This document shows positions 4,275-18,195 of a stretch of 64,000 nucleotides of DNA, one piece after another (the first letter of the stretch is position 1; each line of letters opens with the position of its first letter). The stretch spans positions 9,922-73,921 of the forward strand of contig JAHITK010000003.1 in the NCBI GenBank assembly GCA_018817645.1. The letters are read 5' to 3'. The notes under the pieces were generated by a model, which had not been told where the DNA came from, did not search any database, and saw only the letters and a program-made list of their open reading frames with translations. The position numbers were made by a program, and so were the translations under genes. This DNA is from Patescibacteria group bacterium. Lineage in GTDB: Bacteria; Patescibacteriota; Minisyncoccia; Minisyncoccales; PEYH01.

Positions 4275-6686
4275 ATGAAATTAAAAAACTTCCTTATCAC
4301 ATCAAAGCAGAAAATTTTCCTTTGGCTGGTTTTTGCCATTACTATGATTTTTGCGCCTACGCATCCTGTTAGGGCGCAATTCGGCATAGAAATCTTGACC
4401 GCGCCCTTTGTTTTTCTGGCAAAACTGGGAATGGCCCTTCTTATCGCCCTGCCTCTCTCTTTCTTCTGCCTTGAAATAGCCCAGATATTTCTAACCTGGG
4501 CCGCTAACCCAAATTTAGTGGGAGGAGTTGCCAGTAATACCTTCGTCCAGGCGGGCTGGACAGTGGTCAGGGATTTTGCCAATCTCTTTTTCATTTTAAT
4601 CGTGGTGGCCATTGGAATAGCCACCGCTTTGAGAGTCAAGCAATACGAAGTAAGAAAGACCCTGCCCCGCTTGATTATTGTCGCCATATTGATAAATTTC
4701 TCGCCCGTAATCTGCGGAGCAGTGATAGACGCAGCCAATATCATTACTAACTTCTTTTTTACCGCCGGCGCCGGGGGATTCGACAACGTCATCACTTTTT
4801 CAAAGGGCTCTTGGGGTTGGTTAAAAGAGAATTTTGGCACCATTAGCGGTGTTTGGGCGGAAATTAGGACAGGCAGAATTTTCTTCAAAATGATAGCCGT
4901 GACTGTATTCAACCTTTTCGGAGCATTTGTCTTATTCTTAATGGGAATACTTTTCATTGTAAGAAATCTCGCTCTGTGGATTTTGGTGATCTTGTCACCT
5001 TTGGCGTTCTTAGGAGCCATATTGCCAAAAGGCGCAGTGATTCCGGGGGTCCCAAAGAAAAAAAATATTTTTGGCATGTGGCGCGACCAATTCGTAAAAT
5101 GGGTTTTTATCGGAGTCACCGGTTCCTTCTTCCTTTATTTGAGCCAGCTGATGATGCAACTACAAGTAAAATCCCTTTTTAACAATCAAGGGCCTACCAC
5201 AGAAGCATCGGAAGTCGGAGGAAATATAATGACCGGCTTAATGATAATGGCCGTACCTTTGATTTTCCTTGGCATAGGGTATTTTGTCACTGTTTCCAGC
5301 TCCGCGCAGGGCGCCGGCGCTATCACAGGATTAGCTAAAAAGGGGTTCGCCTATGGGAAAAAGACAGCCCAAGGTGCGGCGATAAACAGACTAAGAAAAG
5401 ACATAGGGCAACCGATAAAAAATAGTTATGGAAGCGCTAAAAGAACTGTCCAAAAAGCGGCTGGAAGAATAATATCAGCCCGGCCAACCGATGCCGAACG
5501 AAAGGCGAGTTGGGATCAATCCTCTGGCTTAGGAAGGGCTGGCAAGATTGTGGCCAGAGCCGTGATTCCTTATAAAACCAGAGAAAGATGGAAAGCTCAA
5601 GCAACGGCAAAAATAAAAGAAGGGGACGTAGGTAAGGTGGAAAAAGCAAAGGCAGAAGCAAATAAATTAAATACTGCGGAAGCGCGCAAGGCGGGATATT
5701 TAGAAGCCAAGAAACAACGCGACAAGGAAAAACAACTCGGCTATATTCAGTCAGCCATAGAAAAAGGAGAATTAGACGGTTATTCAAATCAAGAAATTCA
5801 GCGCGCTATACGAGATGCCGGACAAATCAATAAAAAATTGGCAGAGGAAATAATGCAATCCGCACCCAATTTGGCCAAACAGGTTTATGACGAATATCAT
5901 CAAGCGCATCCGAATATAATGAATGAATATAACAATCTAAACACACAGCGAAATGATTTAGACGCTCAACGGATAGCTGCCCAGAATGCGGGCAACAATG
6001 GTTTAGCAAATCAGTTACAAGGACAAATGGACGCATTACAAAGGCAGATGGATAGAGCCAAGCGACCAGCAGACGAGAGAGGTCTATGGATATCGCCTGA
6101 AGACACGCAGCGTTACGGCGGATTGGAGGAAAAAATTGTACTTACTACTAAAACAAAGGATGTCGGTAAATTTAGAAAAAATTACGTAAAGACAAACAGA
6201 TTTATGGAAATTATTCAGGATGAAGCTCATCAAGGGAAAAATGCTTGGTCTGGAAACAACTTATCAAAAATAGCGGAAGAATATGGAACGCCCGTAGCTG
6301 ACCTGTATAATGCCACATCTGACAGAATAAATCGAGCCGGAAACTGGATGCATAATATCGCTGGAAAACGTCACCACATAAAAAGATATATTACAAACAA
6401 CCCCGGAGCTATTGCGGCAGGATATAGACTTCCCGAAGGTGTTTCTGAAGATGATGATGGAGACGATGAAGGAAAGAAAATAATAATCCCGTCTTCAACC
6501 AATGCAAGGACAACTAGCAAGGAAAATATGGATGAAAAACAAAGAGCAGAAATGGAAGAAGAGTCTAGAAGGAAAAGTGAGGAAAGTTCCAGAAGGCGGG
6601 AACCTAATCCTGATGAAAGGGGCGACCGCGGTGAAGAGGAAAGAGAGGGAAGGGGCGGACGCGAGCCCAGAGATGACGAAAGGTAA
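4275..6686 (+). CDS. VirB6/TrbL-like polytopic membrane protein with a long charged coiled-coil C-terminal tail
   Basis: Signal-like N-terminus, at least 6 hydrophobic helices in the first 400 aa, then a roughly 400-aa K/E/R-rich tail ending RRKSEESSRRREPNPDERGDRGEEE. Located next to the VirB4-like genes. Confidence 0.45.
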   Translation: MKLKNFLITSKQKIFLWLVFAITMIFAPTHPVRAQFGIEILTAPFVFLAKLGMALLIALPLSFFCLEIAQIFLTWAANPNLVGGVASNTFVQAGWTVVRDFANLFFILIVVAIGIATALRVKQYEVRKTLPRLIIVAILINFSPVICGAVIDAANIITNFFFTAGAGGFDNVITFSKGSWGWLKENFGTISGVWAEIRTGRIFFKMIAVTVFNLFGAFVLFLMGILFIVRNLALWILVILSPLAFLGAILPKGAVIPGVPKKKNIFGMWRDQFVKWVFIGVTGSFFLYLSQLMMQLQVKSLFNNQGPTTEASEVGGNIMTGLMIMAVPLIFLGIGYFVTVSSSAQGAGAITGLAKKGFAYGKKTAQGAAINRLRKDIGQPIKNSYGSAKRTVQKAAGRIISARPTDAERKASWDQSSGLGRAGKIVARAVIPYKTRERWKAQATAKIKEGDVGKVEKAKAEANKLNTAEARKAGYLEAKKQRDKEKQLGYIQSAIEKGELDGYSNQEIQRAIRDAGQINKKLAEEIMQSAPNLAKQVYDEYHQAHPNIMNEYNNLNTQRNDLDAQRIAAQNAGNNGLANQLQGQMDALQRQMDRAKRPADERGLWISPEDTQRYGGLEEKIVLTTKTKDVGKFRKNYVKTNRFMEIIQDEAHQGKNAWSGNNLSKIAEEYGTPVADLYNATSDRINRAGNWMHNIAGKRHHIKRYITNNPGAIAAGYRLPEGVSEDDDGDDEGKKIIIPSSTNARTTSKENMDEKQRAEMEEESRRKSEESSRRREPNPDERGDRGEEEREGRGGREPRDDER

Positions 6687-6697
6687 ATAAAAATTTA

Positions 6698-6730
6698 AAA
6701 CAGGGCTGTCCCTCCGGACAGCCCTGTTTG
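6698..6730. terminator. Bidirectional stem-loop terminator between convergent genes
   Basis: AAACAGGGCTGTCC-CTCC-GGACAGCCCTGTTT, a perfect 14-bp stem. Confidence 0.7.
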
Positions 6731-6741
6731 GCTTCCACCTC

Positions 6742-8013
6742 CTATGCCGACTCTTCTTCTGATTTTGGGGTCGGCTTTTTCTTGTCTGCCGGCTCATTGG
6801 TTGCAGCAGATTGTAGCCATTTCAGCAGGAGCGCCGGGACTGCCCCAAGGGATCCCTTCTCTCCGCCTCCCTGATTCAGGGCAACTGCCCATGCTCCTCC
6901 ATGCTTAGCAAGAGTATCTGTCAGCTCAAAGGCCAAGGCCGTCCTTAGTGCCTCGGACTCCTCTCCCATCCCCGCTCCTTGGAGTTTTTCCTTCATATCC
7001 AGCACGGGTCCAATTCGCTCCGCGCTCTCTTGAAGGGCCTTATACAGGGCTGCTTCTGTCTTAAGCTTCTCTACCCGCACGCGCTCGCGGGCTTCCTCAA
7101 TCTCCTTGGAGAGCTTAACAGCTCCGCAAAAGGCCCCTGTAATCTGTAGTATGCCTCTTTGGTGGGCATCTATGGTAATGAGGTTGTCCAAGCTCGCAGC
7201 GATACCCCTATAGAGCTTTGGAAGAGGGATTAGGCGGGTGATTTCTTCATCAAGATCCTCTATCGCCGGGTTAGACATATCCGGCACCGCGTCAATAGCT
7301 GTCATCGTCGCAAGGAGCGTTTTTTTCAGCGCCCTCACTCTCTTCAGTTTTTCCTTGGCAACGCCCTCGGCTTCGCGGATTCGGTCCAAGATGTTATCAC
7401 GGATCATTCCCTCGTCAGTCGCTTCTGCGACTGTAAGGGTTTGTATATACCCCACGATAAGCGAATTGGCCTTATTCCGAATCCAGTCCGGCCAATCTTG
7501 GACGCCGTACACCGCTGCCACGATATCGCCAAACCCAACACCCATTTTCAAGACGAGGGTGTAATCTCGAAGATAGATGACCCCATCATGTATTTGGATC
7601 TTGGGCAGTTCCCCTGGCGGTAGGGGGATGAGGTCAAGCACCCTTTCGTGCGGCCTCATCAACTTTCCCTTCGTATCTATGAAGGGTATCGTCAGGTGAA
7701 TGCCCGGACAGAGAGCGTCTTTCCTCCTTCCGAACCTCAAGCGGAGCCATGTTTCCGGCTCTGGAACAATCCATACGCCCCAGCAAACTAAGCCCCCGAG
7801 CGCAAGGATCTCCCCAAGAAACGACCAGCCCTTGGGAATCGCGAAGAGGCCCAAAACGAATATCAAGAGTCCAGCCCAAAAACCGACATTGGCAAAAATC
7901 CTGAAAATTCGTCTCTGCACCTCTACCCCTCTTTCTTGTCCTTGGCGCCCTACTCCTTGCCCTGCTCTCGCGGCAACCTGTCCAGTTGCAACCTCTGTTG
8001 GCATTTTGCCCAT
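6742..8013 (-). CDS. SPFH/band-7 (stomatin/HflC-like) membrane protein, anomalously GC-rich
   Basis: TM segment then VPEPETWLRLRFGRR...LTIPFID...IQIHDGVIYLRDYTLV fits the SPFH fold, followed by a coiled-coil tail. Local GC is visibly far above the surrounding genome. Confidence 0.6.
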   Translation of the reverse strand: MGKMPTEVATGQVAARAGQGVGRQGQERGVEVQRRIFRIFANVGFWAGLLIFVLGLFAIPKGWSFLGEILALGGLVCWGVWIVPEPETWLRLRFGRRKDALCPGIHLTIPFIDTKGKLMRPHERVLDLIPLPPGELPKIQIHDGVIYLRDYTLVLKMGVGFGDIVAAVYGVQDWPDWIRNKANSLIVGYIQTLTVAEATDEGMIRDNILDRIREAEGVAKEKLKRVRALKKTLLATMTAIDAVPDMSNPAIEDLDEEITRLIPLPKLYRGIAASLDNLITIDAHQRGILQITGAFCGAVKLSKEIEEARERVRVEKLKTEAALYKALQESAERIGPVLDMKEKLQGAGMGEESEALRTALAFELTDTLAKHGGAWAVALNQGGGEKGSLGAVPALLLKWLQSAATNEPADKKKPTPKSEEESA

Positions 8014-8209
8014 CTCCTTGCGCTTATACGCTTCTTTTTTGTTCGTTGTGAAGGTGCTGCTTGTGCCGCTATGTCTAAACGGAGAATTCCGATGAATCTC
8101 CTTTGTTTCTTTATGCCTATATTATACCAATAATCACCGCCTGTGTCAATGGCACGATGGGCGGGGTAGCGATGGTTCCCGCTCTGTTGATTTCTTTCTG
8201 TTAATTGCT

Positions 8210-8680
8210 GTGTTAAAATGGATTACAGGAAATTATTATGATAAAATTAAAGAATTGAAGATTAATATTATGGAAGAATTATCTAGAGACGAACTTTGGG
8301 CAATTTATAATACCCTGCCCGCCACTTTAAAAGACGCCATATTTTCAGAAGACACTGCTGATGCTATTTTTAATATCTGCAAACTCTACGAAATAGATAA
8401 AAACTCGGAAGTGGCGAAGATAATCGGCAGAATTTTGATGGGTCTCCTGCCTCCGGAGTTCCTGAGAGATACGCTTCAGGAAGAAATCGGACTTAAAGAA
8501 GATATTGCCAAAAAAACAACTATGGAACTGGAGCATTTCATCCTGAATCCGGTCAAAAAAGAATTGGACGCCCTGTACGAAGAAATAGAAGGAAAAGAGG
8601 AAAAGCCAGTAGGCGATACAAAAGAACAACCCACTGAAGAACCGAAGAAAGAAGACAGCTATAGAGAACCCATACAATAA
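8210..8680 (+). CDS. Hypothetical acidic protein (likely start ATG 8271)
   Basis: ORF only. Highly acidic C-terminus. No recognisable motif. Confidence 0.35.
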   Translation: MLKWITGNYYDKIKELKINIMEELSRDELWAIYNTLPATLKDAIFSEDTADAIFNICKLYEIDKNSEVAKIIGRILMGLLPPEFLRDTLQEEIGLKEDIAKKTTMELEHFILNPVKKELDALYEEIEGKEEKPVGDTKEQPTEEPKKEDSYREPIQ

Positions 8681-8811: not shown

Positions 8812-9228
8812 ATGGAGTATCCTCTGCCACAATTTTTATCAATAAAACCAAAGGTTGCCGGACCCCTTAATTTAATGCAACTGTTGTATATCGTGGGCGG
8901 GGCAATCGTGGCCGTTATTTTCTACTTCACCGCTTCCCTCACCACCTTTATCATAATGGGCATCCCGATTATGGTGGTTGCTTTGATTTTGGCTTTTGGC
9001 AAAAGAAAAGGATTCCCGATTCCCACCATCATCGGCCGTTCTTTTATGTTTATCTTTGCCAGTAAAAGATATCTCTGGAAAAAAGTGGACACGCCGGCAA
9101 TCGTGCTTCCAAAAGCGACCAAGGCAAAGGCCGCAGAATTAGAAGACGATAAAGCGGTGAGCTTAAAAATTTCCGGCCAGAGCAGATTGAAAGAAATTGG
9201 GCGGCTGATTGAAATTCATCCCAAGTAA
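8812..9228 (+). CDS. Small two-TM membrane protein (VirB3-like position); the ORF track starts at TTG 8791
   Basis: Two long hydrophobic helices. Immediately precedes the VirB4-like genes. Confidence 0.4.
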   Translation: MEYPLPQFLSIKPKVAGPLNLMQLLYIVGGAIVAVIFYFTASLTTFIIMGIPIMVVALILAFGKRKGFPIPTIIGRSFMFIFASKRYLWKKVDTPAIVLPKATKAKAAELEDDKAVSLKISGQSRLKEIGRLIEIHPK

Positions 9229-9242: not shown

Positions 9243-9881
9243 ATGAATCTTTCATCCCAACAATTCCTGCCATTAGAACAAATAAAAGAGGGCATTATGA
9301 TATTGAAGGACCATAGTTTGAGGGGCATAATGATGGCCTCCTCCCTTAATTTCGCCCTCAAAGCCACTGACGAGCAGGAAGCGATTATTTATCAATTCCA
9401 GACATTTTTAAATGCTTTAGATTTTTCCTGCCAAATCTTTATCGCTTCAAGAAAAGTGAATATTACCGGCTATCTGGAAAAACTAAAAGAAGTGGAGAAA
9501 AAACACGAGAATGAATTGATGGCTGCCCAGACCAGGGAATACCGGAAGTTTATTGAAAAAATAGTGGCTGGCGGTTCCATCATGAATAAAAATTTCTACA
9601 TAATCGTGCCTTTTTACCTCTCGGAAATGTACGGAGGCGCTACCAAAGGAGGAATACTCACTCTAAAAGCAGCGCCGACCTTAACCGAAGAAATGTTCCA
9701 AAGGGCAAAATCTCAACTTTATCAAAGAATGGAATTTCTGTCTTTGGGCTTGAGAAGGTGCGGGGTTTGGAGCGTTGCCTTACAGAGCGAAGAATTAATA
9801 GAGCTTTTATGGAGTATGTCCCACCCCAAAGAATCCTCTGTCGGCTATTACCCGGAGATTCCGCCTGAATTAATACAATAA
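9243..9881 (+). CDS. VirB4/TraC-family N-terminal domain encoded as a separate ORF
   Basis: ILKDHSLRGIMMASSLNFALKATDEQEAI... resembles the N-terminal segment of conjugative VirB4 ATPases. The stop is 8 nt before the next ORF. Confidence 0.4.
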   Translation: MNLSSQQFLPLEQIKEGIMILKDHSLRGIMMASSLNFALKATDEQEAIIYQFQTFLNALDFSCQIFIASRKVNITGYLEKLKEVEKKHENELMAAQTREYRKFIEKIVAGGSIMNKNFYIIVPFYLSEMYGGATKGGILTLKAAPTLTEEMFQRAKSQLYQRMEFLSLGLRRCGVWSVALQSEELIELLWSMSHPKESSVGYYPEIPPELIQ

Positions 9882-9889: not shown

Positions 9890-12800
9890 ATGAAACTGCC
9901 TTCTTTAAGTGAATTATTGGGAAGAAAGACGGCCTATGAAGCCGGCGCGGAACCGCAAGCAATGAATTTGCTTGATTTTATCGCTCCGCCGGCCATTACC
10001 ATCGGGTCTGATTATTTCCAAATCGGGGAAAAATTCGCCAAATCATATTTTATCTTTTCCTATCCAAGATATTTGAGCACCGGGTGGCTGGCGCCGATTA
10101 TAAACCTGGATATTCCTTTGGATATCTCCATTTTCTTTCATCCGATTGACACTGGGCTTGTTTTGAAAAAATTAAGCAAAAAGGTTACCGAGGTTCAGTC
10201 CGAGATTATGGAAAAAGAGGAAAAGGGACTGATTCGAGACCCGGTGCTGGAAACCGCGTACAAAGATATTGAGATATTAAGAGACCGGCTCCAAACAGCG
10301 CAGGAAAGAATGTTTAGGATAGGGCTTTACCTGACCATATACGCTGACGATAAAAAGGAATTGGAAAAAATAGAGGGCACGATTCGCTCGATTCTGGAAT
10401 CAAAATTGGTCTATATAAAACCAGCTCTCTACCAGCAGGACCGGGCGATGGTTTCCGCCTATCCCGCAGGCATAGACCGGCTTCAGGTGCATACCTCCAT
10501 CAATACCAGCCCGCTTTCCACAATTTTCCCTTTCGTGTCTTTTGATTTGAGTTCCAATGAAGGAATCCTTTACGGAATCAATCAGCATAACAGTTCGCTG
10601 GTCTTGTTTGACCGATTCAGCTTGGAGAACGCTAACTCGGTCGTGTTCGGAAAAAGCGGCGGCGGCAAAAGCGTTTTATCATTTGAGCCGGTGCTGATAA
10701 GCGAAAACGGCCAAACCAAAGTTGAAAATATCGGCAAAGTGGTGGAAAGAGCGATAGAAAAATACGGGTGTCAAAAAATTGACGAGGAGCTGGAAGGAGC
10801 GCTAAATCCATCCATTAAGGTTTGGAGTTTTGATAAAAATCTTAAAGGCAGTTGGTCAACAGTGACAGTCGCGGCCAGGAAAAAAGCCCCTGAAACATTT
10901 TATAAATTCAGAACCCGGAGCGGGAGAGAAGTGAGCACAACCGGAGACCATAATATGCTAATCATCAGAAACGGACAAATCGTGGCTGAGAAAAGCGCTG
11001 AAATCAAGGCAGGGGAATTCATCCCGTTGTCCAGAAAAATTTCCGAAAACTCCTCTCCGGATAAATTCATAAACCTGCTTGAATTGTTGAAAAACTCCCG
11101 CTTGATTTATATTTCCAAGGCGGAAAAAATCATTAAAAAATATTATCATCAGATAAAAAATCTTGAAGGGAATTCCTCGTTAGGGAAATATCTCTATAAA
11201 TACAAGGCTGGCCGGAGAATTCCTATTAAATATTTCTTGGAAATCATCAATTCTTTAAAAATTCCGGAAGCCGAGTTTAATGATTTGAAGATTGTTTCCA
11301 AAAACGGAGACCTCGGCAATGGTTTGAAGATAAACCTACCTATTTCAGCCGACTTATTGAAAATAATCGGTTTTATAACATCAGAAGGGACAGTGGGCGA
11401 ACACTTTATAAATATCAGCAACCAGGACGAGGGATTCATCAAGGAGTGTATGGATTCTTTCAGAAATATTGGAATCCCCTGTTATCGGACAGATAAAGCG
11501 GTTATTTGCGCCAGCCGCGTTTTCACGGAAATCATCAAATCATTGGGCGGAAAACAAAAATCCGGAAACAAAAAGGTATTGCCATTCATATTCAATGCGG
11601 AAAAAGAAAAAATCGCGCCATTTCTTTCCGCTTATTTTGAAGGAGACGGGGAGGTGGAACATAATAAAATATGTGTCACGACCAAATCAAAACAATTATC
11701 ATCTGAAATCTCTTATCTGCTTTATTATTTTGGAATCATTGCCCGGATTCAAAAGAAAATCAAATACGCAGCCAATACGAAAAAGAAACTTAAACAAACA
11801 TACTGGCAGATTTCTATATCAGGCAAAAGCGATTTGGAAAAATTTGCCCAAGAAATCGGGTTCATTTCCGGCAGAAAAACAAATAAACTGAACAGTATCA
11901 TAAAAGAAAACGGAAATACCAATGTTGATATAATTCCGGGTCTGACCTCGTTATTTGGAGAAATGTACAATGCCTGCCCTCCGCTTCTTATGGGGATGCC
12001 GGAAATTTCCGCCCTGAAGTGCGGGGTTTATAATCCTTCGCCGGATAATTTAAAAAGAATAATAGAAAAAATAGAAAAAAGGGTTGTTTATTTTAAAGAG
12101 CGGGGAGAACAAATAAAAATCCTGTCGGAATTGCCTAGAATTCAGGAATTAATTGAGCGCGGAGAAAGCGATAAATCGCTAAACAAGGAATTATGGAATT
12201 ATCTTGGCCCCAGCTGGCAACTTGTAAAAACCAACCAAGTTGACCCGGGCTTTGAAAATGTATCAAAAATCATCAATGTAATTTATGGCAATGATTATAA
12301 TCTGTCGGAAATCAAAAAAGAGATTCATCAGGGATTCAAAGAAATGGATATCTCTATTAAGGACTATAATCGCACCGTCCAGTCGGCATTAATAGACAGA
12401 CCGGATTCGAATACCAGATACCGCACCATTCAACAAGCCGGTCAGCTCATTTGGCAGAGATACCAGACAGTTTTAAGAAATGGCCTTCCAAAAATTGAGA
12501 ACACGCTTACGCGCCTAAAAACTCTGGCCAATTCTGATTTATTCTTTGATGAAATTGTCAGCATTGAAAAAATTGCCAACCAGAACGAGCAATATGTTTA
12601 TGACTTAACGGTGGACAATGAAGTGTTTCTCTGCGGGAACGGCGGAATGTTCGTGCATAATTCTTACGCTGTCAAGTTGGAGGTTTTACGGTCGTTAATG
12701 CTTGGAATTGAATCAATTATCATTGACCCGGAAAACGAGTATAAATTCCTCTCCGACGCAGTGGGCGGCAAGTTTTACAATATCTCTTTGGCCTCGGAAA

Positions 12801-13681
12801 GTCATATTAATCCTTTTGACCTGCCCGAACCGTTGGAAGGTGAAGGCCCAAAAGATGTCCTGCGCTCCAATATTATCAATTTGGTCGGGCTGATGAGAAT
12901 AATGCTTAGCGGGCTTACGCCGGAAGAGGACTCCATTATTGACCAGGCGATTAACGAAACATACGCGGCCCGCGACATTACCGCAGACACAGATCCTGTT
13001 TTATGGAAAGAAAGAGTGCCTTTGCTGGCTGATTTGGAGTCAGTGCTGGAAACAATGGAAGGCGCTGAATCGCTGGTTAAGCGATTAAGAAAATTCACCA
13101 AAGGCGTCTACGCGGGATTCTTTAATTATCCGACAAATATAATAATGGACAATCCCTTGGTCGTTTTCGGCATTAAAAACCTGGAAACGGAATTAAGGCC
13201 GTTGGCGATGTTCATTGTTATGCGCTACATCTGGAATGCCATCAAAGAGGATTTGAAAAAAAGAATCTTGGTGATTGATGAGGCCTGGTGGCTGATGCAG
13301 ACAGAGGACAGCGCCTCTTTCCTCTACGGAATTGTAAAAAGAGGCAGAAAATACTGGCTCGGCACAACCACCATCACCCAAGATGTCAATGATTTTATGA
13401 AATCAGAATACGGCCAGCCGATTATTACCAACTCTTCTCTGCAGTTATTGATGAAACAATCGCCCGCCACTATTGAAGTGGTAAAGGAAACATTCAACCT
13501 CACTGACCAGGAGAAATATCTTCTTTTGGAAGCGCCGATCGGCGAAGGAATATTTTTTGCCGGGGAAAAACATGTTTCCATCAGAGTGGTTGCTTCTTAC
13601 GCCGAAGACCAGATTATCACCACCTCGCCCGAAGAAATGATTAAAATCAAAAAACTTAAAAAAATAAGAGAAAATGCCTGA
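9890..13681 (+). CDS. VirB4/TrbE-like T4SS ATPase interrupted by an in-frame intein
   Basis: Walker A VVFGKSGGGKS then, after the insert, the VirB4 IIIDPENEY motif. Walker B ILVIDEAWWL. Extein about 600 aa. Confidence 0.8.
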   Translation: MKLPSLSELLGRKTAYEAGAEPQAMNLLDFIAPPAITIGSDYFQIGEKFAKSYFIFSYPRYLSTGWLAPIINLDIPLDISIFFHPIDTGLVLKKLSKKVTEVQSEIMEKEEKGLIRDPVLETAYKDIEILRDRLQTAQERMFRIGLYLTIYADDKKELEKIEGTIRSILESKLVYIKPALYQQDRAMVSAYPAGIDRLQVHTSINTSPLSTIFPFVSFDLSSNEGILYGINQHNSSLVLFDRFSLENANSVVFGKSGGGKSVLSFEPVLISENGQTKVENIGKVVERAIEKYGCQKIDEELEGALNPSIKVWSFDKNLKGSWSTVTVAARKKAPETFYKFRTRSGREVSTTGDHNMLIIRNGQIVAEKSAEIKAGEFIPLSRKISENSSPDKFINLLELLKNSRLIYISKAEKIIKKYYHQIKNLEGNSSLGKYLYKYKAGRRIPIKYFLEIINSLKIPEAEFNDLKIVSKNGDLGNGLKINLPISADLLKIIGFITSEGTVGEHFINISNQDEGFIKECMDSFRNIGIPCYRTDKAVICASRVFTEIIKSLGGKQKSGNKKVLPFIFNAEKEKIAPFLSAYFEGDGEVEHNKICVTTKSKQLSSEISYLLYYFGIIARIQKKIKYAANTKKKLKQTYWQISISGKSDLEKFAQEIGFISGRKTNKLNSIIKENGNTNVDIIPGLTSLFGEMYNACPPLLMGMPEISALKCGVYNPSPDNLKRIIEKIEKRVVYFKERGEQIKILSELPRIQELIERGESDKSLNKELWNYLGPSWQLVKTNQVDPGFENVSKIINVIYGNDYNLSEIKKEIHQGFKEMDISIKDYNRTVQSALIDRPDSNTRYRTIQQAGQLIWQRYQTVLRNGLPKIENTLTRLKTLANSDLFFDEIVSIEKIANQNEQYVYDLTVDNEVFLCGNGGMFVHNSYAVKLEVLRSLMLGIESIIIDPENEYKFLSDAVGGKFYNISLASESHINPFDLPEPLEGEGPKDVLRSNIINLVGLMRIMLSGLTPEEDSIIDQAINETYAARDITADTDPVLWKERVPLLADLESVLETMEGAESLVKRLRKFTKGVYAGFFNYPTNIIMDNPLVVFGIKNLETELRPLAMFIVMRYIWNAIKEDLKKRILVIDEAWWLMQTEDSASFLYGIVKRGRKYWLGTTTITQDVNDFMKSEYGQPIITNSSLQLLMKQSPATIEVVKETFNLTDQEKYLLLEAPIGEGIFFAGEKHVSIRVVASYAEDQIITTSPEEMIKIKKLKKIRENA
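10679..12661 (+). mobile_element. Intein (about 661 aa) with LAGLIDADG homing-endonuclease domain, inserted 3 residues after the P-loop
   Basis: N-splice SFEPVLISENGQ...IG (Hint block A, Ser1). Two LAGLIDADG-type motifs, LLKIIGFITSEGTV and APFLSAYFEGDGEV. C-terminal blocks VYDLTVDNEVFLCGNGGMFVHN followed by +1 Ser. Confidence 0.8.
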
Positions 13682-13973
13682 AACAATGTCGGCAATGGGG
13701 ATTATGAAACTGCTAATCGCTATCATATTGGACGGCGCTACTCTCATTTGTTTATGGTTTTACACTCTTGGTGGTCCGGGGATATTTATCGGCGAAACTC
13801 TTTCCTATGTCCCCAAAATATTAAGCTTGGTCTTTCTCGGGGGTTGGAGTTTATCAGGCAAAGATAAAAAAATAAATATGGGGAATAAGAAGGTCTTATG
13901 GAAACTTATTCCTGGAATCGGAAATCTTCCTTTTAATACTCTAAACCAGATAACCGCGCTTAACGCTGCTTAA
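13674..13973 (+). CDS. Small hydrophobic membrane protein (pilin/VirB2-like candidate)
   Basis: 99 aa, two hydrophobic helices. Overlaps the VirB4 stop by 8 nt (translational coupling). Confidence 0.35.
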   Translation: MPETMSAMGIMKLLIAIILDGATLICLWFYTLGGPGIFIGETLSYVPKILSLVFLGGWSLSGKDKKINMGNKKVLWKLIPGIGNLPFNTLNQITALNAA

Positions 13974-13994
13974 AACGATTCTTAATTTTCAACA

Positions 13995-16568
13995 ATGTCC
14001 GGTAAAAAAAACATTCTTTTTATCGCCTTGGTTTTGCTGGCTGTTTTTTTATTAACAATAATCCATTGTTCAACCGTAAGCGCAGCTAAATTAGAGAATA
14101 TCTATCCAAATATCCCAGGAGCAGTAACACCAACCACTACTGAAACGCCCCTGCCTGTATTATTCAAATATCTCTACAATCTTTCCATTATTTTAGCCGG
14201 AGTTATCGCCTTTGTGGTCACGGTCTGGGGAGGGATTAGATACATTTTAGCCGGTCCCCAGCCCGGAAAATTGACGGATGCCAGAGAGCAAATCGCTCTC
14301 GGATTTGTAGGAATGATAATTATTTTTGGCTCATATGTCATTGTAAACACCATAAATCCCGATTTCACGAAACTAACCGTAATCCTGCCGGTTAATAAAT
14401 TCACCGGCACCCTTCCGCCGCCAAGCGATACTTCTAATATTGATATCGGCCTTTTTGAGATCCCGGTCGGTTCAATCATTACCTCTGAATTCGGGGCTTC
14501 TTCTTTTCTGGCAACCACCAGCCCTGATATTGATTACGCCAATACCGAATGGCCGTCAGCCACTACCAGCACCAGCACTTATGACACCGACTTTCAGGGC
14601 GCTCTTTTCGGGGCGCGTTTAAGGCGGGTTTATGAGGTGGCAAGCACTACTGTGCCGGCGGCCCAAAAACTTCACGATTTGAGCACGGAACTCAAAGACC
14701 TTACAGATGACTGCACTTGCATGTATGAATGCCAAGGAAATTTCGCAATAGTATGTGAAACAGATGAGAATTGCGGTTGCGACGAAGGATATCTGTGCAG
14801 TGACGACACAAAAGATAAAATGAAAGAAAAAATAACGGAAATCGGGTCTTTAAAAGACGCTTTCAAGGCATTTTTAAATCCTAACTCTCTGGTGAAGGAT
14901 TATTATAATAATAACCAGTCCGATATTGACGGTCTGGATGATAATGAAATAAAAGACATCATCCAAACGATGATTGAAGTGGAAAATAAAGGAGGATACA
15001 GTCCGAAAACAGATCTTTTAGAAAGAGATGTAGGAAGAAATCTTTTTGAAATGACTTTTCTTATAAACGATATGAAGAAGATAAAAAGAATGCTTAATCC
15101 TTACGACCAGGATGTGGGATTTTTAAGTTTGCTGACCTTTGCCGAAGCCACCACCTTAGAATCCACTATGGATGTCAGCTCTACGATTTATAATTATTAT
15201 GTCACTTTTGCCTCCGGCTTGGAAAAAATTGACGAAAAAAACGACCCAGCCACTTTTTATTCCGCCGCCACCCTGCCTTACCCTTATGGACCGCCCGGCA
15301 CCCAGCCCTATAATCAGAATATCCCCGAGCCCGACCTCTTGCAATACTTAGATAAACAAAAAATATCTTATCCTGAAAATATCGCTTTCGCAGACGAGCC
15401 CTATACTCCGCCGGATGTAAAATTTAATTTTGACACCCCACCAACCACCGGCGGGGTCTGCAATTATATCGTGGAAATACCCATTGGCCGGGCTCTTGAT
15501 GAAGCCATTAAACTTGCCCAAGCCATCAATAAAGAATTATTCAATATTTTTATTAAAGGGCAGGCGGAAATAATCGGCGCTAATATGTTAATAAAGGCAG
15601 CGGAAAAATTCGCAGACCTGAAATGTGCTGACGGCTGCATTCAGCCAAAATGTTTGGAGGAACTTGGAGTACCTGGTTGTGTCCCTCCTAGTATAGTTCT
15701 TCTTGGTTGGAAATGCTATCCCAATGGGGAAACGGTGTTGTTAAACGCATATACTGGTATCGCTATGGATCTTATTAAGTTGACCACTATCCCGGGCATA
15801 AATCTCGCGCTGGACGATATTGAAACCTCATTTAAAAAATTGGACTCCCAGGAGCCGATTTTAACCGACTATGTCTGCCCAGACATAGAAGGAAATTGCC
15901 TGAGCAAAGACGGCACAGTCCAAGATGACAAAATAGAAAAAAGGGAGTATACTTTAAAAGATAAACTAATCGAGGTCCAACTTTTATTGGACCGCTCCCG
16001 AGAACTGGTGGGCCAAGCCAAAGAAAAAAGCGTTTATGAAATATTGCTGGAGGACTATATCGCTCTTGATCTTGGGGAATATTATAAAAATTTATTGGAT
16101 TACATAAGGGGGATTGACTCTATCAATAAAACCGACCTTCAGGACTGCCACATAATGTCCGGCACCATCAAAAAAATAGAGGGCAAAAACTACAGCACCT
16201 CATTGATGAATTGCCGGGATGCCAAACTCTTGGACCTGATAGATTTTCACGATAAAGAAGTGTGCAGTCCCAACCCTTACCTCGACGCCAATTTTTATTT
16301 AAACCCTGATGCACGCGCCTTACGGCCAATCAGTTGTTATTGCTATGACGAGGATGCTGACAAAAATTACTATAACAAAAGCGATTTCCCGGAACTTTAT
16401 CAGAGTGTAAGCCTTGTCATTCCCAGTTTTGCGGCTGATATAGAAGATTTAGACGCTGACGCTTTGCAGGATATGGCAAACCAATGGCAGGATGCCCGCA
16501 TAGATTTGAATAATTTCGCCGGGTTTGGTAATGATTATTTTTGCTGCATAAAGAACTATGAAGAATAA
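13995..16568 (+). CDS. Large secreted Cys-rich protein with pilin-like two-helix N-terminal module
   Basis: Signal/TM, then KYLYNLSIILAGVIAFVVTVWGGIRYILAG...LTDAREQIALGFVGMIIIFGSYVIVNTINPDF, then about 700 aa rich in Cys clusters (CTCMYECQG..CETDENCGCDEGYLC). Confidence 0.5.
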   Translation: MSGKKNILFIALVLLAVFLLTIIHCSTVSAAKLENIYPNIPGAVTPTTTETPLPVLFKYLYNLSIILAGVIAFVVTVWGGIRYILAGPQPGKLTDAREQIALGFVGMIIIFGSYVIVNTINPDFTKLTVILPVNKFTGTLPPPSDTSNIDIGLFEIPVGSIITSEFGASSFLATTSPDIDYANTEWPSATTSTSTYDTDFQGALFGARLRRVYEVASTTVPAAQKLHDLSTELKDLTDDCTCMYECQGNFAIVCETDENCGCDEGYLCSDDTKDKMKEKITEIGSLKDAFKAFLNPNSLVKDYYNNNQSDIDGLDDNEIKDIIQTMIEVENKGGYSPKTDLLERDVGRNLFEMTFLINDMKKIKRMLNPYDQDVGFLSLLTFAEATTLESTMDVSSTIYNYYVTFASGLEKIDEKNDPATFYSAATLPYPYGPPGTQPYNQNIPEPDLLQYLDKQKISYPENIAFADEPYTPPDVKFNFDTPPTTGGVCNYIVEIPIGRALDEAIKLAQAINKELFNIFIKGQAEIIGANMLIKAAEKFADLKCADGCIQPKCLEELGVPGCVPPSIVLLGWKCYPNGETVLLNAYTGIAMDLIKLTTIPGINLALDDIETSFKKLDSQEPILTDYVCPDIEGNCLSKDGTVQDDKIEKREYTLKDKLIEVQLLLDRSRELVGQAKEKSVYEILLEDYIALDLGEYYKNLLDYIRGIDSINKTDLQDCHIMSGTIKKIEGKNYSTSLMNCRDAKLLDLIDFHDKEVCSPNPYLDANFYLNPDARALRPISCYCYDEDADKNYYNKSDFPELYQSVSLVIPSFAADIEDLDADALQDMANQWQDARIDLNNFAGFGNDYFCCIKNYEE

Positions 16569-18195
16569 AAAGATAAAAAAAATCGTATTGATAATGAGCA
16601 TTTTAGCGGTTCTTTCCTGCGCCGGCTTAATATACGCCCAAGACAGCGATAGTTCGCTTGAATTAGAATATCCCACTTTAGGCGGGATGCAAGGTCCCCA
16701 AAGCACCAGCGTCAAATTAACAACCTATATCCGCTATCTTTATAACTTCGCCATTATCAGCGGCGGGCTGATCGCTTTATTGTCCCTAATTTACGGCGGA
16801 TTTCGGTTTTTGACCTCTACTGGCAATCCAGCTGCCATCACTGACGCCCGGGGACAAATTTTAGCCGGCTTCCTTGGCCTAGTGGTTATTTTGGGCTCAT
16901 ATATAATACTCAATGAACTGAATCCTGATTTAATATCTTTACGAACTCCGGGTATTACGAAACACGGAAAAGGAATAATCTTATACAACCAAGCCAACTG
17001 CGGAGGATTAGGGGATTATGCCGACACCCCTGAAACTACCGATAATATTCCAGACGGACTTCTTTATAAAGCAATAAATAGCAGCGGTTCAGCAACGCTG
17101 GGGAAAAACCAAGATGGAAAAGATATCCTGCCTGTTTCTTTATACTCTTTCCAAGATTCAGAACAATTAATAATACAATTCTATGCTAATGAAGATTGTA
17201 AAAACAATGTCCTTCCCTCGCCCAAACTACAAGCAAACCAATGCTTGGAGATTGATGCCTCCAATGTTAAATGCATAAAATTTATCTGGTACAAACCCGG
17301 GGTCTGGGTGTTCAATAGATTAGATGACGGAGGCAGTGTGCCTGACCCGGGCGACTTGCCTCTTAATTGGGAGGAAGGCAAGGACTACATAGTGGTTCAG
17401 GGCAATCAGGATTCTCTACCCGACAAGTTTAGCGACAAGGTTTTGGGCATAGCAATTGTGCCCAGTAAAGAGTCGCGGGGAGGATTAGGGCAAAACTATG
17501 GCGTAATTGCCCATAATATGTCCGGCGGTATATCGGAAGAAAAGGGCTGGGCGCATATTTATCTTCCCGGATGCGGCTCTACCAAAAAATGCAAAATGAT
17601 GAGAGGAGAGATAACCGTATTCGGTCCATTTTATGACCCCAATAAAGATTATGACTCTGACACCAATAACTACGAATTTTCCCACATCTCTTCTTTAACG
17701 ATATTTAATGTTCCAAAAACAGAGGAAACAAGCAGTAAAGAGATAAAGGTTTGCCGGCAGGATCGCTGTGAGCCGCAATGGGTGGGCGATAAGTCATATG
17801 ATGTTTCTAAAACATACTCTCCCGCAAGCGGGCTTAGAGAAATAACCGGCACTTTTGGCAAGGCGGTTTCTCCTTACAACCCCGGTAAGAGTATAATATA
17901 TGGAATAAGTTTTGAAGGCGTAGAATGGGATGGTACCAATAAAGCCATCGCAATTAGAGAGCATGACCCTAAGTTTGACGATGTACAAGAGGGAGTATCA
18001 GCTATTGAAATAGACGAAGGAGCCCATTATTTACTGCTCCTTTACGAACATTTTATTGATGATTTTTCAAAAATCAATGAAAATGTTTCCACTGACGCAG
18101 CCATTATCAATATATCCCAAACATCTTTGAGAACCATCCAGATGAATGACCGGGTGGGCACCATTATCGTTATCAGGACAGAGGCGAAGGATTAA
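16558..18195 (+). CDS. Paralogous secreted protein with the same pilin-like N-terminal module
   Basis: RYLYNFAIISGGLIALLSLIYGGFRFLTS...ITDARGQILAGFLGLVVILGSYIILNELNPDL aligns residue-for-residue with the 13995 protein. The C-terminal domain differs. Confidence 0.5.
   Translation: MKNKKIKKIVLIMSILAVLSCAGLIYAQDSDSSLELEYPTLGGMQGPQSTSVKLTTYIRYLYNFAIISGGLIALLSLIYGGFRFLTSTGNPAAITDARGQILAGFLGLVVILGSYIILNELNPDLISLRTPGITKHGKGIILYNQANCGGLGDYADTPETTDNIPDGLLYKAINSSGSATLGKNQDGKDILPVSLYSFQDSEQLIIQFYANEDCKNNVLPSPKLQANQCLEIDASNVKCIKFIWYKPGVWVFNRLDDGGSVPDPGDLPLNWEEGKDYIVVQGNQDSLPDKFSDKVLGIAIVPSKESRGGLGQNYGVIAHNMSGGISEEKGWAHIYLPGCGSTKKCKMMRGEITVFGPFYDPNKDYDSDTNNYEFSHISSLTIFNVPKTEETSSKEIKVCRQDRCEPQWVGDKSYDVSKTYSPASGLREITGTFGKAVSPYNPGKSIIYGISFEGVEWDGTNKAIAIREHDPKFDDVQEGVSAIEIDEGAHYLLLLYEHFIDDFSKINENVSTDAAIINISQTSLRTIQMNDRVGTIIVIRTEAKD

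What the first reader, a model, noticed from the sequence alone, without database searches (positions are those of the whole stretch)
4275..18195. Compact T4SS-like cluster with a minimal, atypical component set
Contiguous same-strand genes: VirB6/TrbL-like polytopic protein with an extreme charged tail (4275-6686); small acidic protein; small two-TM protein; VirB4 N-domain ORF; intein-containing VirB4 body; overlapping small membrane protein; then two large secreted proteins. There is no recognisable VirB8/9/10/11, VirD4 or relaxase. This suggests a reduced secretion/DNA-uptake or surface-appendage apparatus rather than a classical conjugation system. The set resembles poorly characterised T4SS-like loci reported in ultra-small bacteria.
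Basis: partly seen in the sequence, partly recalled or inferred. Interest (0 to 1): 0.7.

Follow-up and report, generated by a model that had tools for sequence, protein, structure and literature searches.

The report
Patescibacteria-type type IV secretion gene cluster
This is a real type IV secretion gene cluster of the kind already described next to the replication origin of ultra-small (Patescibacteria/CPR) bacteria, so it is a further example rather than a new system, although its motor gene carries an intein and its "pilins" are unusually large surface proteins.

Summary
Window 4275-18195 encodes an extended VirB6/TrbL-like protein, a PrgI/VirB3 protein, a separate VirB4 N-domain (TrsD-like) protein and a CD1110-family VirB4 ATPase. 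The ATPase is interrupted in its Walker A loop by a 664-aa LAGLIDADG intein. A small membrane protein and two large proteins follow, and each large protein starts with a VirB2-like T4SS_pilin module. No VirB8/9/10/11, coupling protein or relaxase is recognisable anywhere in the 64 kb.

One detail is wrong. The genes are not all contiguous on one strand: an SPFH/Band-7 gene (6742-8013) lies on the opposite strand inside the cluster.

It is the chromosomal, origin-proximal, MPF-FATA-related T4SS of Patescibacteria (PMC12102498; PMC10633639; PMC12857230). The order ksgA-VirB6-...-PrgI-TrsD-VirB4-pilins-jag-yidC-rnpA-dnaA recurs across most of the 80 related species examined.

Details I did not find in those papers:
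- None of the 80 relatives carries the intein, but it recurs at the same site in VirB4 of other CPR lineages.
- The "pilins" of this clade have a median length of 473 aa and fall into two conserved ectodomain families.
- Two unnamed accessory families and the SPFH gene are conserved in fixed positions.

Verdict: new member of a known kind, moderate interest.

The parts
4275..6686 (+). Extended VirB6/TrbL-like polytopic membrane protein (803 aa). It has a helical membrane core of about 345 residues and a roughly 450-aa hydrophilic extension ending in a highly charged low-complexity tail.
6698..6729 (.). Hairpin with a 14-bp stem (8 G-C pairs) between the convergent stop codons of the VirB6-like and SPFH genes; likely a terminator serving both strands.
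   Evidence: Terminator-like scan, best-ranked site, called on the minus strand. The palindromic stem, which would let it act in both directions, is read directly from the sequence.
6742..8013 (-). SPFH/Band-7 membrane protein (423 aa, N-terminal TM hairpin) embedded in the cluster on the opposite strand. Possible membrane scaffold; a link to the T4SS is unproven.
   Evidence: Pfam Band_7 E=8.5e-6, above cutoff. TM-like segments. Perfect TTGACA-17-TATAAT promoter at 8149..8121. An SPFH-like minus-strand ORF lies between VirB6 and TrsD in 22 of 43 related loci that span this interval.
8270..8680 (+). Small acidic cytoplasmic protein (136 aa from ATG 8270; the mechanical ORF starts at GTG 8210). 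Unnamed family, usually immediately upstream of PrgI, with a conserved extreme C-terminal D-x-Y-R-E-P-I-E motif.
   Evidence: pI 4.6, no TM. Found in 63 of 81 sources, upstream of PrgI. Motif; it is specific to this family (58/64). No Pfam or PDB relative.
8812..9228 (+). PrgI/VirB3-like two-TM protein (ATG 8812; alternative TTG 8791).
   Evidence: Pfam PrgI PF12666 E=5.1e-7, 30.6 bits, above the 27 cutoff. Conserved in 69/80 loci directly upstream of TrsD-VirB4.
9243..9881 (+). TrsD-like protein: a free-standing VirB4 N-terminal domain (212 aa), separated from VirB4 by a TAA stop and 8 nt.
   Evidence: NCBIfam VirB4_plasma (model positions 104-233) 5.6e-8, CD1110 (5-120) 2e-5, TrsD 1.8e-3. 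Junction sequence. Separate gene in 78/80 loci. TrsD is the commonest T4SS component of Patescibacteria (PMC12102498).
9890..13681 (+). VirB4 ATPase precursor (1263 aa). N-extein 9890-10669, C-extein 12662-13681; the spliced product is 599 aa.
   Evidence: NCBIfam conju_CD1110 4.5e-103, above cutoff. The spliced sequence matches VirB4 4AG5 at 7e-43 in one stretch across the junction, and TrwK at 8e-5. All 80 relatives have the uninterrupted gene.
10670..12661 (+). Class-1 intein (664 aa) with a LAGLIDADG homing endonuclease, inserted in the Walker A loop (GKSGGGK^S ... FVHN^S).
   Evidence: Pfam/NCBIfam intein and LAGLIDADG hits. Boundaries. Intein-free alleles read FGKSGGGKSYA(I/V)KLE. GC is 39.0% against 44-45% in the exteins. 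Related inteins sit at the same site in VirB4 of other Patescibacteria.
13674..13973 (+). Small membrane protein (99 aa) overlapping the VirB4 stop by 8 nt. Unnamed family (motifs SPEG..LD..G, IGGW, ELIPxxGxxPxWT).
   Evidence: Iterative HMM finds it in 36/81 sources, nearly always starting -7 to +76 nt from the VirB4 stop. Alignment. No Pfam match. Co-occurs with downstream large pilin-module genes (27/28 vs 22/38, Fisher p=4e-4, not corrected for phylogeny).
13995..16568 (+). Signal peptide + VirB2-like T4SS_pilin module (about residues 31-127) + 730-aa Cys-rich, largely helical ectodomain (857 aa).
   Evidence: PF18895 4e-6, above cutoff. 18 invariant Cys. NCBI name 'pilin' for the identical protein P0121. 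Ectodomain family of 44 members in related loci. Only 36 representatives in 1.84e9 proteins, with the same architecture wherever the match reaches the start of the ectodomain. Structure model is poor (pLDDT 60.8) with no fold match.
16558..18195 (+). Signal peptide + VirB2-like T4SS_pilin module (about residues 28-128) + 417-aa ectodomain with weak beta/gamma-crystallin-like signals (545 aa).
   Evidence: PF18895 3.3e-5. The N-terminal ~125 aa are 37% identical to the 857-aa protein (1e-24) and the rest is unrelated. In its family, 35/44 hit PF18895, 2 hit TrbC/VirB2 PF04956 and 3 hit Crystall. PDB 3hzb at 0.0078.

Best explanation
This is the chromosomal, vertically inherited, origin-proximal type IV secretion system of a Patescibacteria (Paceibacteria/Parcubacteria-type) bacterium. 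It is a reduced derivative of the monoderm MPF-FATA conjugation machinery that no longer serves conjugation.

Shown here: the membrane translocon parts are encoded. These are an extended VirB6-like protein, PrgI/VirB3, and a VirB4 motor split into a TrsD-like N-domain protein and an ATPase body.

The ATPase body is made as a precursor whose Walker A loop is broken by an intein. The intein must splice out to recreate GKSGGGKS before the motor can bind ATP. This step is inferred from intact splicing residues and from intein-free alleles in relatives.

Downstream, translationally coupled genes encode a small membrane protein and two proteins that share a VirB2-like two-helix module but carry large, unrelated ectodomains.

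Inferred mechanism: VirB4, VirB3 and VirB6 extract or assemble the VirB2-like modules from the membrane, as in pilus-forming T4SSs. The cell thereby displays the Cys-rich and crystallin-like ectodomains on a short filament or surface structure that contacts the host cell. The apparatus would then support attachment and/or exchange of macromolecules needed for epibiotic growth, rather than DNA export.
For: Component identities:
- PrgI, VirB4 CD1110 and T4SS_pilin score above or near curated cutoffs.
- The spliced VirB4 aligns to the VirB4 structure 4AG5 at 7e-43.

Vertical inheritance rather than mobility:
- The order M23/LysM-ksgA-VirB6-(SPFH)-acidic protein-PrgI-TrsD-VirB4-(small TM protein)-pilin genes-jag-yidC-rnpA-dnaA-dnaN recurs across most of the 80 species-level relatives.
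- No relaxase, T4CP or integrase domain was found in the window ORFs scanned.

Intein:
- Ser1, TxxH, terminal HN and +1 Ser are all present, and two LAGLIDADG stretches are detected.
- The intein-free allele in L001 (95% identical) equals the predicted spliced product.

Pilin-module proteins:
- 136 in related loci, median 473 aa, and the module is N-terminal in nearly all.
- Two conserved ectodomain families.
- Invariant cysteines fit an extracytoplasmic location.

Literature:
- The same repertoire and genomic context are described for Patescibacteria (PMC12102498).
- T4SS and pilin genes are essential for epibiotic growth of S. epibionticum, which lacks a recognisable relaxase or T4CP (PMC10633639; PMC12857230).
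Against: - Function is entirely inferred. There is no experimental data for this lineage, and essentiality is known only from one Saccharibacterium.
- The absence of T4CP and relaxase is established only for these 64 kb. T4CP homologues are often encoded far from virB4 in Patescibacteria (PMC12102498).
- The 4275 protein itself has no direct significant Pfam hit, and Foldseek E-values to TrwI are marginal (about 0.04-0.08).
- TrsD similarity is far below the NCBIfam cutoff (18 vs 200 bits).
- Subunits of 545-857 aa are hard to reconcile with a canonical VirB2 pilus lattice.
- The ectodomain model was low-confidence (pLDDT 60.8) and gave no fold match.
- Intein splicing competence was not tested.
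Confidence: 0.78

Rival explanations
1. It is the mating-pair-formation module of an integrated conjugative element or a remnant of one, and it moves DNA between cells.
For: The VirB4 belongs to the CD1110 conjugal-transfer ATPase family, and PrgI and TrsD are conjugation-plasmid components. A few Patescibacteria genomes do carry relaxases (PMC12102498).
Against: No relaxase, T4CP, integrase or repeat-bounded island was found in the window. The cluster lies between ksgA and jag-yidC-rnpA-dnaA in the same order across most of the 80 species examined, which indicates vertical inheritance. Composition is close to that of the flanks apart from the 6-8 kb stretch.
Confidence: 0.04
2. It is an import device: a ComB-like DNA-uptake system or a conduit for taking nucleotides, lipids or proteins from the host, rather than a secretion or adhesion apparatus.
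For: Patescibacteria lack many biosynthetic pathways. [quoted passage not shown] T4SS-related DNA-uptake systems exist (ComB of Helicobacter; from my own knowledge).
Against: In S. epibionticum, DNA uptake depends on T4P and ComEC, and a comEC deletion is viable while the T4SS is essential (PMC12857230). Nothing in the window links the cluster to comEC or comF. The direction of transport cannot be read from sequence.
Confidence: 0.13
3. The cluster is degenerate and inactive: VirB4 is split and interrupted, and the remaining genes are relics.
For: VirB4 is encoded in two ORFs, and its P-loop is disrupted by 1992 nt.
Against: The split (TrsD-like ORF + VirB4) is conserved in 78/80 relatives and across Patescibacteria (PMC12102498). 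The intein keeps all splicing residues and both LAGLIDADG motifs. All ORFs are intact, with short gaps or overlaps typical of coupled translation. VirB4 is 95% identical to that of the nearest species, which indicates strong purifying selection.
Confidence: 0.03
4. The two large proteins are ordinary Sec-exported, membrane-anchored surface proteins that merely neighbour the T4SS. Their N-terminal module is a generic two-helix anchor, not a functional VirB2 equivalent.
For: They are 5-8 times longer than known VirB2 pilins. PF18895 scores lie at or near the threshold (27.2 and 24.3 bits against 26.6). Each has a signal-peptide-like N-terminus.
Against: Of 136 such genes in the related loci, most lie directly downstream of virB4 and a minority lie upstream next to the VirB6-like gene. 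The module is more conserved (84-85% to L001) than the ectodomains (54-69%). Some family members also hit TrbC/VirB2 PF04956. Pilin genes in the S. epibionticum cluster are essential.
Confidence: 0.1

Closest known systems
Patescibacteria-clade T4SS (Quinonero-Coronel et al. 2025, PMC12102498; S. epibionticum SEML1_0006-0019, Wang et al. 2023, PMC10633639)
   Same: VirB4 of MPF-FATA affinity, TrsD-like gene next to virB4, PrgI/VirB3, VirB6, an array of PF18895 VirB2-like genes, no relaxase or T4CP nearby, and a chromosomal location beside dnaA/dnaN/rnpA/ksgA.
   Different: This copy has an intein in the VirB4 P-loop, which those papers do not mention. Its 'pilins' are 545 and 857 aa with large ectodomains. 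An SPFH gene is embedded on the opposite strand. No VirB1-like hydrolase gene is encoded inside the cluster; an M23/LysM gene lies two genes upstream.
Monoderm MPF-FATA conjugative T4SSs (pGO1/pSK41 TrsC-TrsD-TrsE; pCF10 PrgH-PrgI-PrgJ; CTn2 CD1110)
   Same: VirB4 CD1110-family ATPase above the curated cutoff, a PrgI-type VirB3, a free-standing TrsD-like VirB4 N-domain as in pGO1, a VirB6-like polytopic protein, and no outer-membrane core.
   Different: No relaxase, T4CP, VirB8-like (PrgL/TraM) protein or PrgB-type adhesin was detected. VirB2-like modules are present, which Gram-positive systems lack (PMC12857230). The cluster is chromosomal and syntenic across species, not on a mobile element.
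R388 Trw / Agrobacterium VirB-D4 (MPF-T) system
   Different: No VirB5, 7, 8, 9, 10, 11 or D4 was recognised. The VirB6 carries a roughly 450-aa hydrophilic extension. The VirB2-like modules are fused to large domains.
Extended VirB6 proteins (Rickettsiales; MPF-FA systems)
   Same: A polytopic VirB6 core plus a large C-proximal hydrophilic, partly unstructured domain (PMC12857230).
   Different: The tail here is a fast-evolving low-complexity charged segment, 20% identical in the nearest species. The 120 homologues listed range from 271 to 770 aa, and most are about 480-770 aa.
P-loop inteins of ATPases (DnaB, MCM, RFC; five VirB4 inteins listed by Novikova et al. 2016, PMC4760082)
   Same: The intein sits in the Walker A loop of a P-loop NTPase. 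It is class 1 with a LAGLIDADG endonuclease.
   Different: The host protein is a Patescibacteria VirB4. Related inteins (35-52% identity) occupy the same site in VirB4 of several other CPR lineages, yet none of the 80 closest species carries one.

Membership tests
Patescibacteria-clade T4SS (MPF-FATA-related) | VirB4 ATPase of the monoderm (CD1110/MPF-FATA) type | tested here: met
   NCBIfam conju_CD1110 E=4.5e-103, 345.9 bits, above the 325 cutoff. PDB 4AG5 VirB4 at 7e-43. No tree was built.
Patescibacteria-clade T4SS (MPF-FATA-related) | TrsD-like (VirB4 N-domain) gene adjacent to virB4 | tested here: inconclusive
   TrsD model E=1.8e-3 but 18 bits against a 200 cutoff. Similarity to VirB4 N-termini is clearer (5.6e-8, 2e-5). 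Position and separateness are conserved in 78/80 loci.
Patescibacteria-clade T4SS (MPF-FATA-related) | PrgI/VirB3 homologue near virB4 | tested here: met
   PF12666 at 30.6 bits, above 27. Present in 69/80 loci.
Patescibacteria-clade T4SS (MPF-FATA-related) | VirB6/TrbL homologue near virB4 | tested here: met
   There is no direct Pfam hit. However, 10/40 family members hit PF04610, and the fold matches TrwI.
Patescibacteria-clade T4SS (MPF-FATA-related) | VirB2-like (PF18895) genes in an array near virB4 | tested here: met
   Two tandem genes with PF18895 at 4e-6 and 3.3e-5. Related loci carry arrays of 1-4.
Patescibacteria-clade T4SS (MPF-FATA-related) | No relaxase or T4CP next to virB4; chromosomal context near dnaA/dnaN/rnpA/ksgA | tested here: met
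   No such domains in the window. ksgA is at 3385-4239, rnpA at 19386-19736 and dnaA at 20258-21613. Synteny.
Patescibacteria-clade T4SS (MPF-FATA-related) | Host is a Patescibacteria genome | tested here: met
   All 80 nearest loci are Patescibacteria MAGs. The identical protein P0121 is named as from 'Patescibacteria group bacterium'.
Conjugative T4SS (MPF + T4CP + relaxase) | Relaxase (MOB) gene | tested here: not met
   No relaxase domain in any scanned ORF of the 64-kb window. The rest of the genome was not available.
Conjugative T4SS (MPF + T4CP + relaxase) | VirD4/TcpA-type coupling protein | tested here: not met
   No T4CP domain in the window (same calls). It could be encoded elsewhere, as is often the case in Patescibacteria.
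Diderm VirB/D4-type T4SS (MPF-T) | Outer-membrane core VirB7/9/10 and VirB11 ATPase | tested here: not met
   No Pfam or NCBIfam hit in the cluster. The only other secretion ATPase in the window is a T2SSE protein at 28726-30033.
VirB2/TrbC conjugative pilin | Signal peptide followed by two hydrophobic helices joined by a short charged loop | tested here: met
   Hydropathy segments at 1-33, 53-87 and 98-121 (857-aa protein) and at 5-29, 60-85 and 99-121 (545-aa protein). Modelled helices H53-85 and H90-119. PF18895 hits.
VirB2/TrbC conjugative pilin | Small mature subunit (roughly 70-120 aa) able to pack in a helical pilus | tested here: not met
   The proteins are 857 and 545 aa. The clade median is 473 aa. 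Polymerisation cannot be tested with these tools.
Class 1 intein with LAGLIDADG homing endonuclease | N-terminal Ser/Cys, block B TxxH, C-terminal HN, +1 Ser/Thr/Cys, endonuclease domain, and an intein-free allele that equals the spliced product | tested here: met
   S261, TTGDH, FVHN924 and S925 are read from the sequence. Intein_splicing 1.2e-18, LAGLIDADG_3 4.4e-19 with 2 stretches. L001, L002 and L005 read GKSGGGKS(Y/F). Splicing activity was not tested.

The most novel reading that the evidence does not exclude
In this Paceibacteria clade the VirB2-like element may not be a pilin in the classical sense. It may instead be a conserved 100-aa 'handle' by which the VirB3/VirB4/VirB6 machine extracts and displays large ectodomain proteins. 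These fall into two conserved families, one Cys-rich and helical, the other crystallin-like; a few members carry M23 or C39-like peptidase domains. The result would be a T4SS-built surface organelle for gripping or breaching the host cell wall. The small membrane protein, the acidic YREP-tailed protein and the embedded SPFH scaffold would be lineage-specific assembly factors. The sporadic P-loop intein would add a post-translational gate on motor activity.
Probability: 0.2. Interest if true: 0.65.

Novelty: new member of a known kind. Interest (0 to 1): 0.36.

Why it matters
T4SSs are among the few machines implicated in how ultra-small, host-dependent bacteria live on other cells, and in the one lineage tested genetically the system is essential. 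This locus adds no new kind of system.

It does show that in a large Paceibacteria clade the so-called pilins are 300-2000-aa fusion proteins belonging to two conserved families. This bears on the open question of whether these monoderm T4SSs build a pilus at all.

It also defines three conserved but unnamed neighbours as candidates for the 'missing' components (VirB8, VirB1 and adhesin equivalents): the acidic YREP-tailed protein, the small membrane protein downstream of VirB4, and the SPFH protein.

Finally, it documents a mobile intein that targets the VirB4 Walker A site across CPR lineages.

Tried and rejected
1. Direct Pfam/NCBIfam assignment of the 4275 protein gave nothing. A family profile searched against PDB sequences returned only coiled-coil noise from the tail. 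The assignment was resolved only through family members and fold.
2. Structure prediction of the 857-aa protein from 14 homologues gave pLDDT 60.8, and Foldseek found nothing below E=1. The ectodomain fold remains unknown.
3. Profiles of the acidic protein and the 99-aa protein against Pfam and PDB gave no credible hits.
4. I tested whether the C-terminal YRE(P) motif is a shared signal on other cluster proteins or on VirB6 tails. It is not: 5/120 VirB6 homologues carry it, and almost all ORF hits belong to the acidic family itself.
5. I first read the ectodomains as hypervariable. Clustering showed two large conserved families instead, so I dropped that reading.
6. I considered that the SPFH gene was a recent insertion, because GC is 50% in 6-8 kb. 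I rejected this because an SPFH-like gene lies in the same position and orientation in 22/43 related loci.
7. An alternative genetic code or a frameshift as the cause of the TrsD/VirB4 split was rejected. There is a clean TAA stop followed by ATG 8 nt later, and the split is conserved.

Full report
**What is in the sequence**

The window is a stretch of a Patescibacteria (CPR) chromosome around the replication origin. It holds a Mg-chelatase-like ATPase, an M23/LysM peptidase (minus strand) and ksgA (3385-4239). After the cluster come jag, yidC and rnpA (minus strand) and then dnaA (20258-21613) and dnaN.

Profile searches identify most of them directly.
- 8791/8812-9228 is a PrgI-family (VirB3) protein: PF12666, E=5.1e-7, above the gathering score.
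- 9243-9881 matches only the first ~120 residues of VirB4 models (5.6e-8 and 2e-5) and, weakly, TrsD.
- 9890-13681 is a CD1110-family VirB4 (E=4.5e-103, above NCBI's curated cutoff) that also contains an intein with a LAGLIDADG endonuclease.
- 13995-16568 and 16558-18195 each begin with a T4SS_pilin (PF18895) module.

**The VirB6-like protein**

The 803-aa protein at 4275-6686 has no direct family hit. Its N-terminal 440 residues retrieve 154 homologues, and all those that carry a source name come from Patescibacteria or related MAGs. Many have precomputed TrbL-type Pfam domains. I recall PF19590 to be a TrbL-like family; PF04610 and PF19597 are named TrbL.

The remaining ~450 residues are hydrophilic. 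The last 104 contain 51 charged residues. That tail is only 20% identical in the nearest species, and tails differ widely across the family. This fits the 'extended VirB6' class described in PMC12857230.

**The motor and its intein**

The VirB4 precursor reads ...FGKSGGGK | SVLSFEPV ... GGMFVHN | SYAVKLE.... Removing residues 261-924 (DNA 10670-12661) gives a 599-aa protein. That protein aligns in a single stretch across the junction to the VirB4 crystal structure 4AG5 (7e-43) and also to TrwK.

A scan of one genome per species (GTDB representatives) with the spliced sequence returned 80 loci. In every one, virB4 is uninterrupted. This includes L001 at 95% identity, which reads FGKSGGGKSYAIKLE at the site.

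The intein keeps Ser1, the TxxH block, the terminal His-Asn and the +1 Ser, and two LAGLIDADG stretches are detected. Its GC content is 39.0%, against 44-45% in the exteins.

Its closest relatives (35-52% identity) are almost all embedded in VirB4-type proteins of other Patescibacteria lineages, including Harrisonbacteria, Taylorbacteria, Portnoybacteria, Uhrbacteria and Yanofskybacteria. They sit at exactly the same K|S site. A few related inteins sit in the P-loop of PF01935-annotated ATPases; I recall that family to be HerA-like.

VirB4 inteins have been counted before: five, in Firmicutes and Proteobacteria (PMC4760082). The Patescibacteria T4SS paper does not mention inteins. Because the intein breaks the Walker A loop, ATP binding by VirB4 should require splicing. 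This is an inference, not a test.

**Synteny and inheritance**

tblastn of the window's proteins against the 80 loci shows a recurring order:
M23/LysM(-) - ksgA - VirB6-like - [variable] - acidic protein - PrgI - TrsD-like - VirB4 - [small TM protein] - pilin-module genes - jag(-) - yidC(-) - rnpA(-) - dnaA - dnaN.

Out of 80 loci, TrsD-like was found in 78, PrgI in 69, pilin-module genes in 60-64 and the VirB6-like gene in 45. The last count is limited partly by how much flank was available.

No relaxase, coupling protein or integrase domain occurs in the ORFs scanned, which cover nearly all ORFs of 120 aa or more in the window. The cluster is therefore a vertically inherited chromosomal system, not a mobile element.

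This is the situation published for Patescibacteria. That work reports VirB4 sister to MPF-FATA, TrsD as the most frequent companion, PrgI-type VirB3, VirB6, arrays of VirB2-like PF18895 genes, almost no relaxases, and proximity to dnaA, dnaN, rnpA and ksgA (PMC12102498). In Southlakia epibionticum the equivalent cluster and its pilin genes are essential for growth on the host, and it lacks recognisable coupling and relaxase proteins (PMC10633639; PMC12857230).

**Correction to the observation**

The cluster is not uninterrupted on one strand. A 423-aa protein with an N-terminal TM hairpin and an SPFH/Band-7 domain (E=8.5e-6, above cutoff) is encoded on the minus strand at 6742-8013.

It has a perfect extended -10 sigma-70 promoter (TTGACA-17-TATAAT, 8149..8121). 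A 14-bp-stem hairpin (6698-6729) lies between its stop codon and that of the convergent VirB6-like gene. The VirB6-like gene is thus probably transcribed with ksgA, and the genes from about 8270 to 18195 form a second, tightly packed unit with gaps of 8-21 nt or overlaps.

The SPFH gene is not a one-off insertion. Among 43 related loci that span VirB6 to TrsD, 22 have an SPFH-like ORF in that interval, always on the opposite strand. The iterated profile also recognises generic SPFH domains, so this shows domain-level conservation, not strict orthology.

**The 'pilins'**

The two large proteins share only their first ~125 residues (37% identity, E=1e-24); the rest is unrelated. Each has a signal-peptide-like segment followed by two hydrophobic helices joined by a short charged loop. 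This is the layout of VirB2.

A profile of this module finds 136 ORFs in the related loci. Their median length is 473 aa and the longest is 2095 aa. The module is N-terminal in nearly all of them, and they occur in arrays of one to four, mostly just downstream of virB4.

Their C-terminal parts are not a random assortment. 117 ectodomains cluster into two large families, 44 like the 857-aa protein and 45 like the 545-aa protein, plus minor groups.
- The 857-aa family has 18 invariant cysteines among its close homologues. It is rare in public data: 36 representatives among 1.84 billion proteins, and wherever the match reaches the start of the ectodomain it begins at about residue 125-150 of the hit. 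In a few longer members it carries Peptidase_M23 or C39-like domains (L025:4006-5715).
- In the 545-aa family, 35/44 members hit PF18895, two hit TrbC/VirB2 PF04956, and three hit beta/gamma-crystallin. The crystallin signal is weak.

Between the window and its nearest species, the module is better conserved (84-85%) than the ectodomains (54-69%).

I found no discussion of this size or architecture in the papers read. Subunits this large do not meet the 'small pilin' criterion, so I do not file them as VirB2 pilins. I regard them as VirB2-module fusion proteins.

**Two further conserved neighbours**

The acidic protein probably begins at ATG 8270, giving 136 aa. It occurs in 63 of 81 sources, upstream of PrgI and usually directly adjacent to it. 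It ends in a nearly invariant D-x-Y-R-E-P-I-E motif that is specific to this family. It has no Pfam or PDB relative.

The 99-aa membrane protein overlaps the VirB4 stop codon by 8 nt. Homologues occur in 36 of 81 sources, nearly always starting within -7 to +76 nt of the VirB4 stop. They share conserved motifs and have no Pfam match. The family co-occurs with downstream large pilin-module genes (27/28 vs 22/38, Fisher p=4e-4). That test is not corrected for phylogeny or for profile sensitivity.

**How it most likely works**

Shown: the genes for a VirB3/VirB4/VirB6 inner-membrane translocon and for VirB2-like modules are present, conserved and intact. Conjugation-specific functions are absent from the neighbourhood.

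Inferred:
1. After the intein splices out, VirB4 works with the TrsD-like N-domain protein and is anchored by PrgI.
2. It powers extraction or assembly of the VirB2-like modules at a VirB6 platform.
3. This places the Cys-rich and crystallin-like ectodomains on the cell surface, or on a short filament, at the contact with a host cell.
4. The system thereby serves attachment and/or macromolecule exchange.

Rival readings are given with their evidence in the structured fields: a conjugative element, an import conduit, a dead relic, and unrelated surface proteins. Only the import variant retains appreciable probability, and sequence alone cannot distinguish it from the preferred reading.

**Verdict**

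The parts I did not find in the literature searched are the recurrent VirB4 P-loop intein in CPR, the large two-family pilin-module proteins, the two unnamed accessory families and the embedded SPFH gene. They give the locus moderate interest.

Noticed in passing
window 6742-8013 (-), promoter 8149..8121, hairpin 6698-6729: An SPFH/Band-7 membrane protein gene with a perfect sigma-70 consensus promoter lies inside the T4SS cluster on the opposite strand. An SPFH-like gene occupies the same position and orientation in 22 of 43 related loci. The T4SS papers read do not mention it. Flotillin-type scaffolds are known to assist other secretion machines (from my own knowledge).
   Followed up: partly
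window 10670-12661; proteins P0135-P0178: Relatives of the VirB4 intein sit at the identical Walker A K|S site in VirB4 of many other Patescibacteria lineages. A few are in PF01935-annotated ATPases (P0164, P0167, P0174) at the analogous P-loop position. None of the 80 closest species has the intein, so distribution is sporadic, as expected of homing.
   Followed up: partly
window 9890-13681: The window's 857-aa 'pilin' is in the protein collection as an identical sequence (P0121). In contrast, no 100%-identical hit to the VirB4 precursor appeared in the intein search (best 52%). The intein-containing gene may not have been called as one protein in the source annotation.
   Followed up: no
window 8270-8680; L060:52-1667: The acidic protein family ends in a nearly invariant D-x-Y-R-E-P-I-E motif. 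Locus L060 has three tandem short ORFs ending DPYKEPIE, DPYKESIE and DLYKEPIE. One VirB6-like homologue (P0030) ends DDYREPIK, and the L001 VirB6-like protein has GYREP near its end.
   Followed up: partly
L025:4006-5715 and other members of alignment A7: Some larger members of the 857-aa pilin-module family carry Peptidase_M23 (2 members, 5e-32) or Peptidase_C39-like (2 members) domains. These are cell-wall or peptide hydrolase modules fused behind a VirB2-like anchor.
   Followed up: partly
window 2190-3188 (-): An M23 peptidase with two LysM domains lies two genes upstream of the VirB6-like gene. It keeps this position in the 34 related loci where it was detected. It is a candidate VirB1-type wall-remodelling enzyme, but no functional link was shown.
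   Followed up: no
window 6001-8000: GC content rises to 50%, against about 37-46% in the rest of the window. The stretch covers the charged tail of the VirB6-like gene and the SPFH gene.
   Followed up: partly
window 28726-30033 (-), 30146-31237 (-): A T2SSE-family (PilB/PilT-type) secretion ATPase (E=3.4e-113) lies next to a 363-aa ORF with no family hit. This is possibly part of a type IV pilus or competence apparatus.
   Followed up: no
window 38056-38673; 47748-49135: There are two AbiEii nucleotidyltransferase toxin genes. The second has an AbiEi-like antitoxin immediately upstream, which makes a type IV toxin-antitoxin pair.
   Followed up: no
window 44275-45039 (-): A second, canonical SPFH/Band-7 protein (254 aa, E=4e-41) is encoded elsewhere in the window. 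The cluster-embedded copy is therefore a divergent paralogue.
   Followed up: no
window 57755-58131 (-), 58480-58929 (-): A tmRNA gene (tag ANLFQRPAYAYA) and smpB lie close together. tRNA-Arg(CCG) is at 47432-47505.
   Followed up: no
L011, L016, L019, L031, L037, L052: In a subset of relatives, virB4 is followed directly by jag. Shorter pilin-module genes (237-423 aa) then lie upstream, between ksgA and the VirB6-like gene. This is an alternative arrangement of the same cluster.
   Followed up: no
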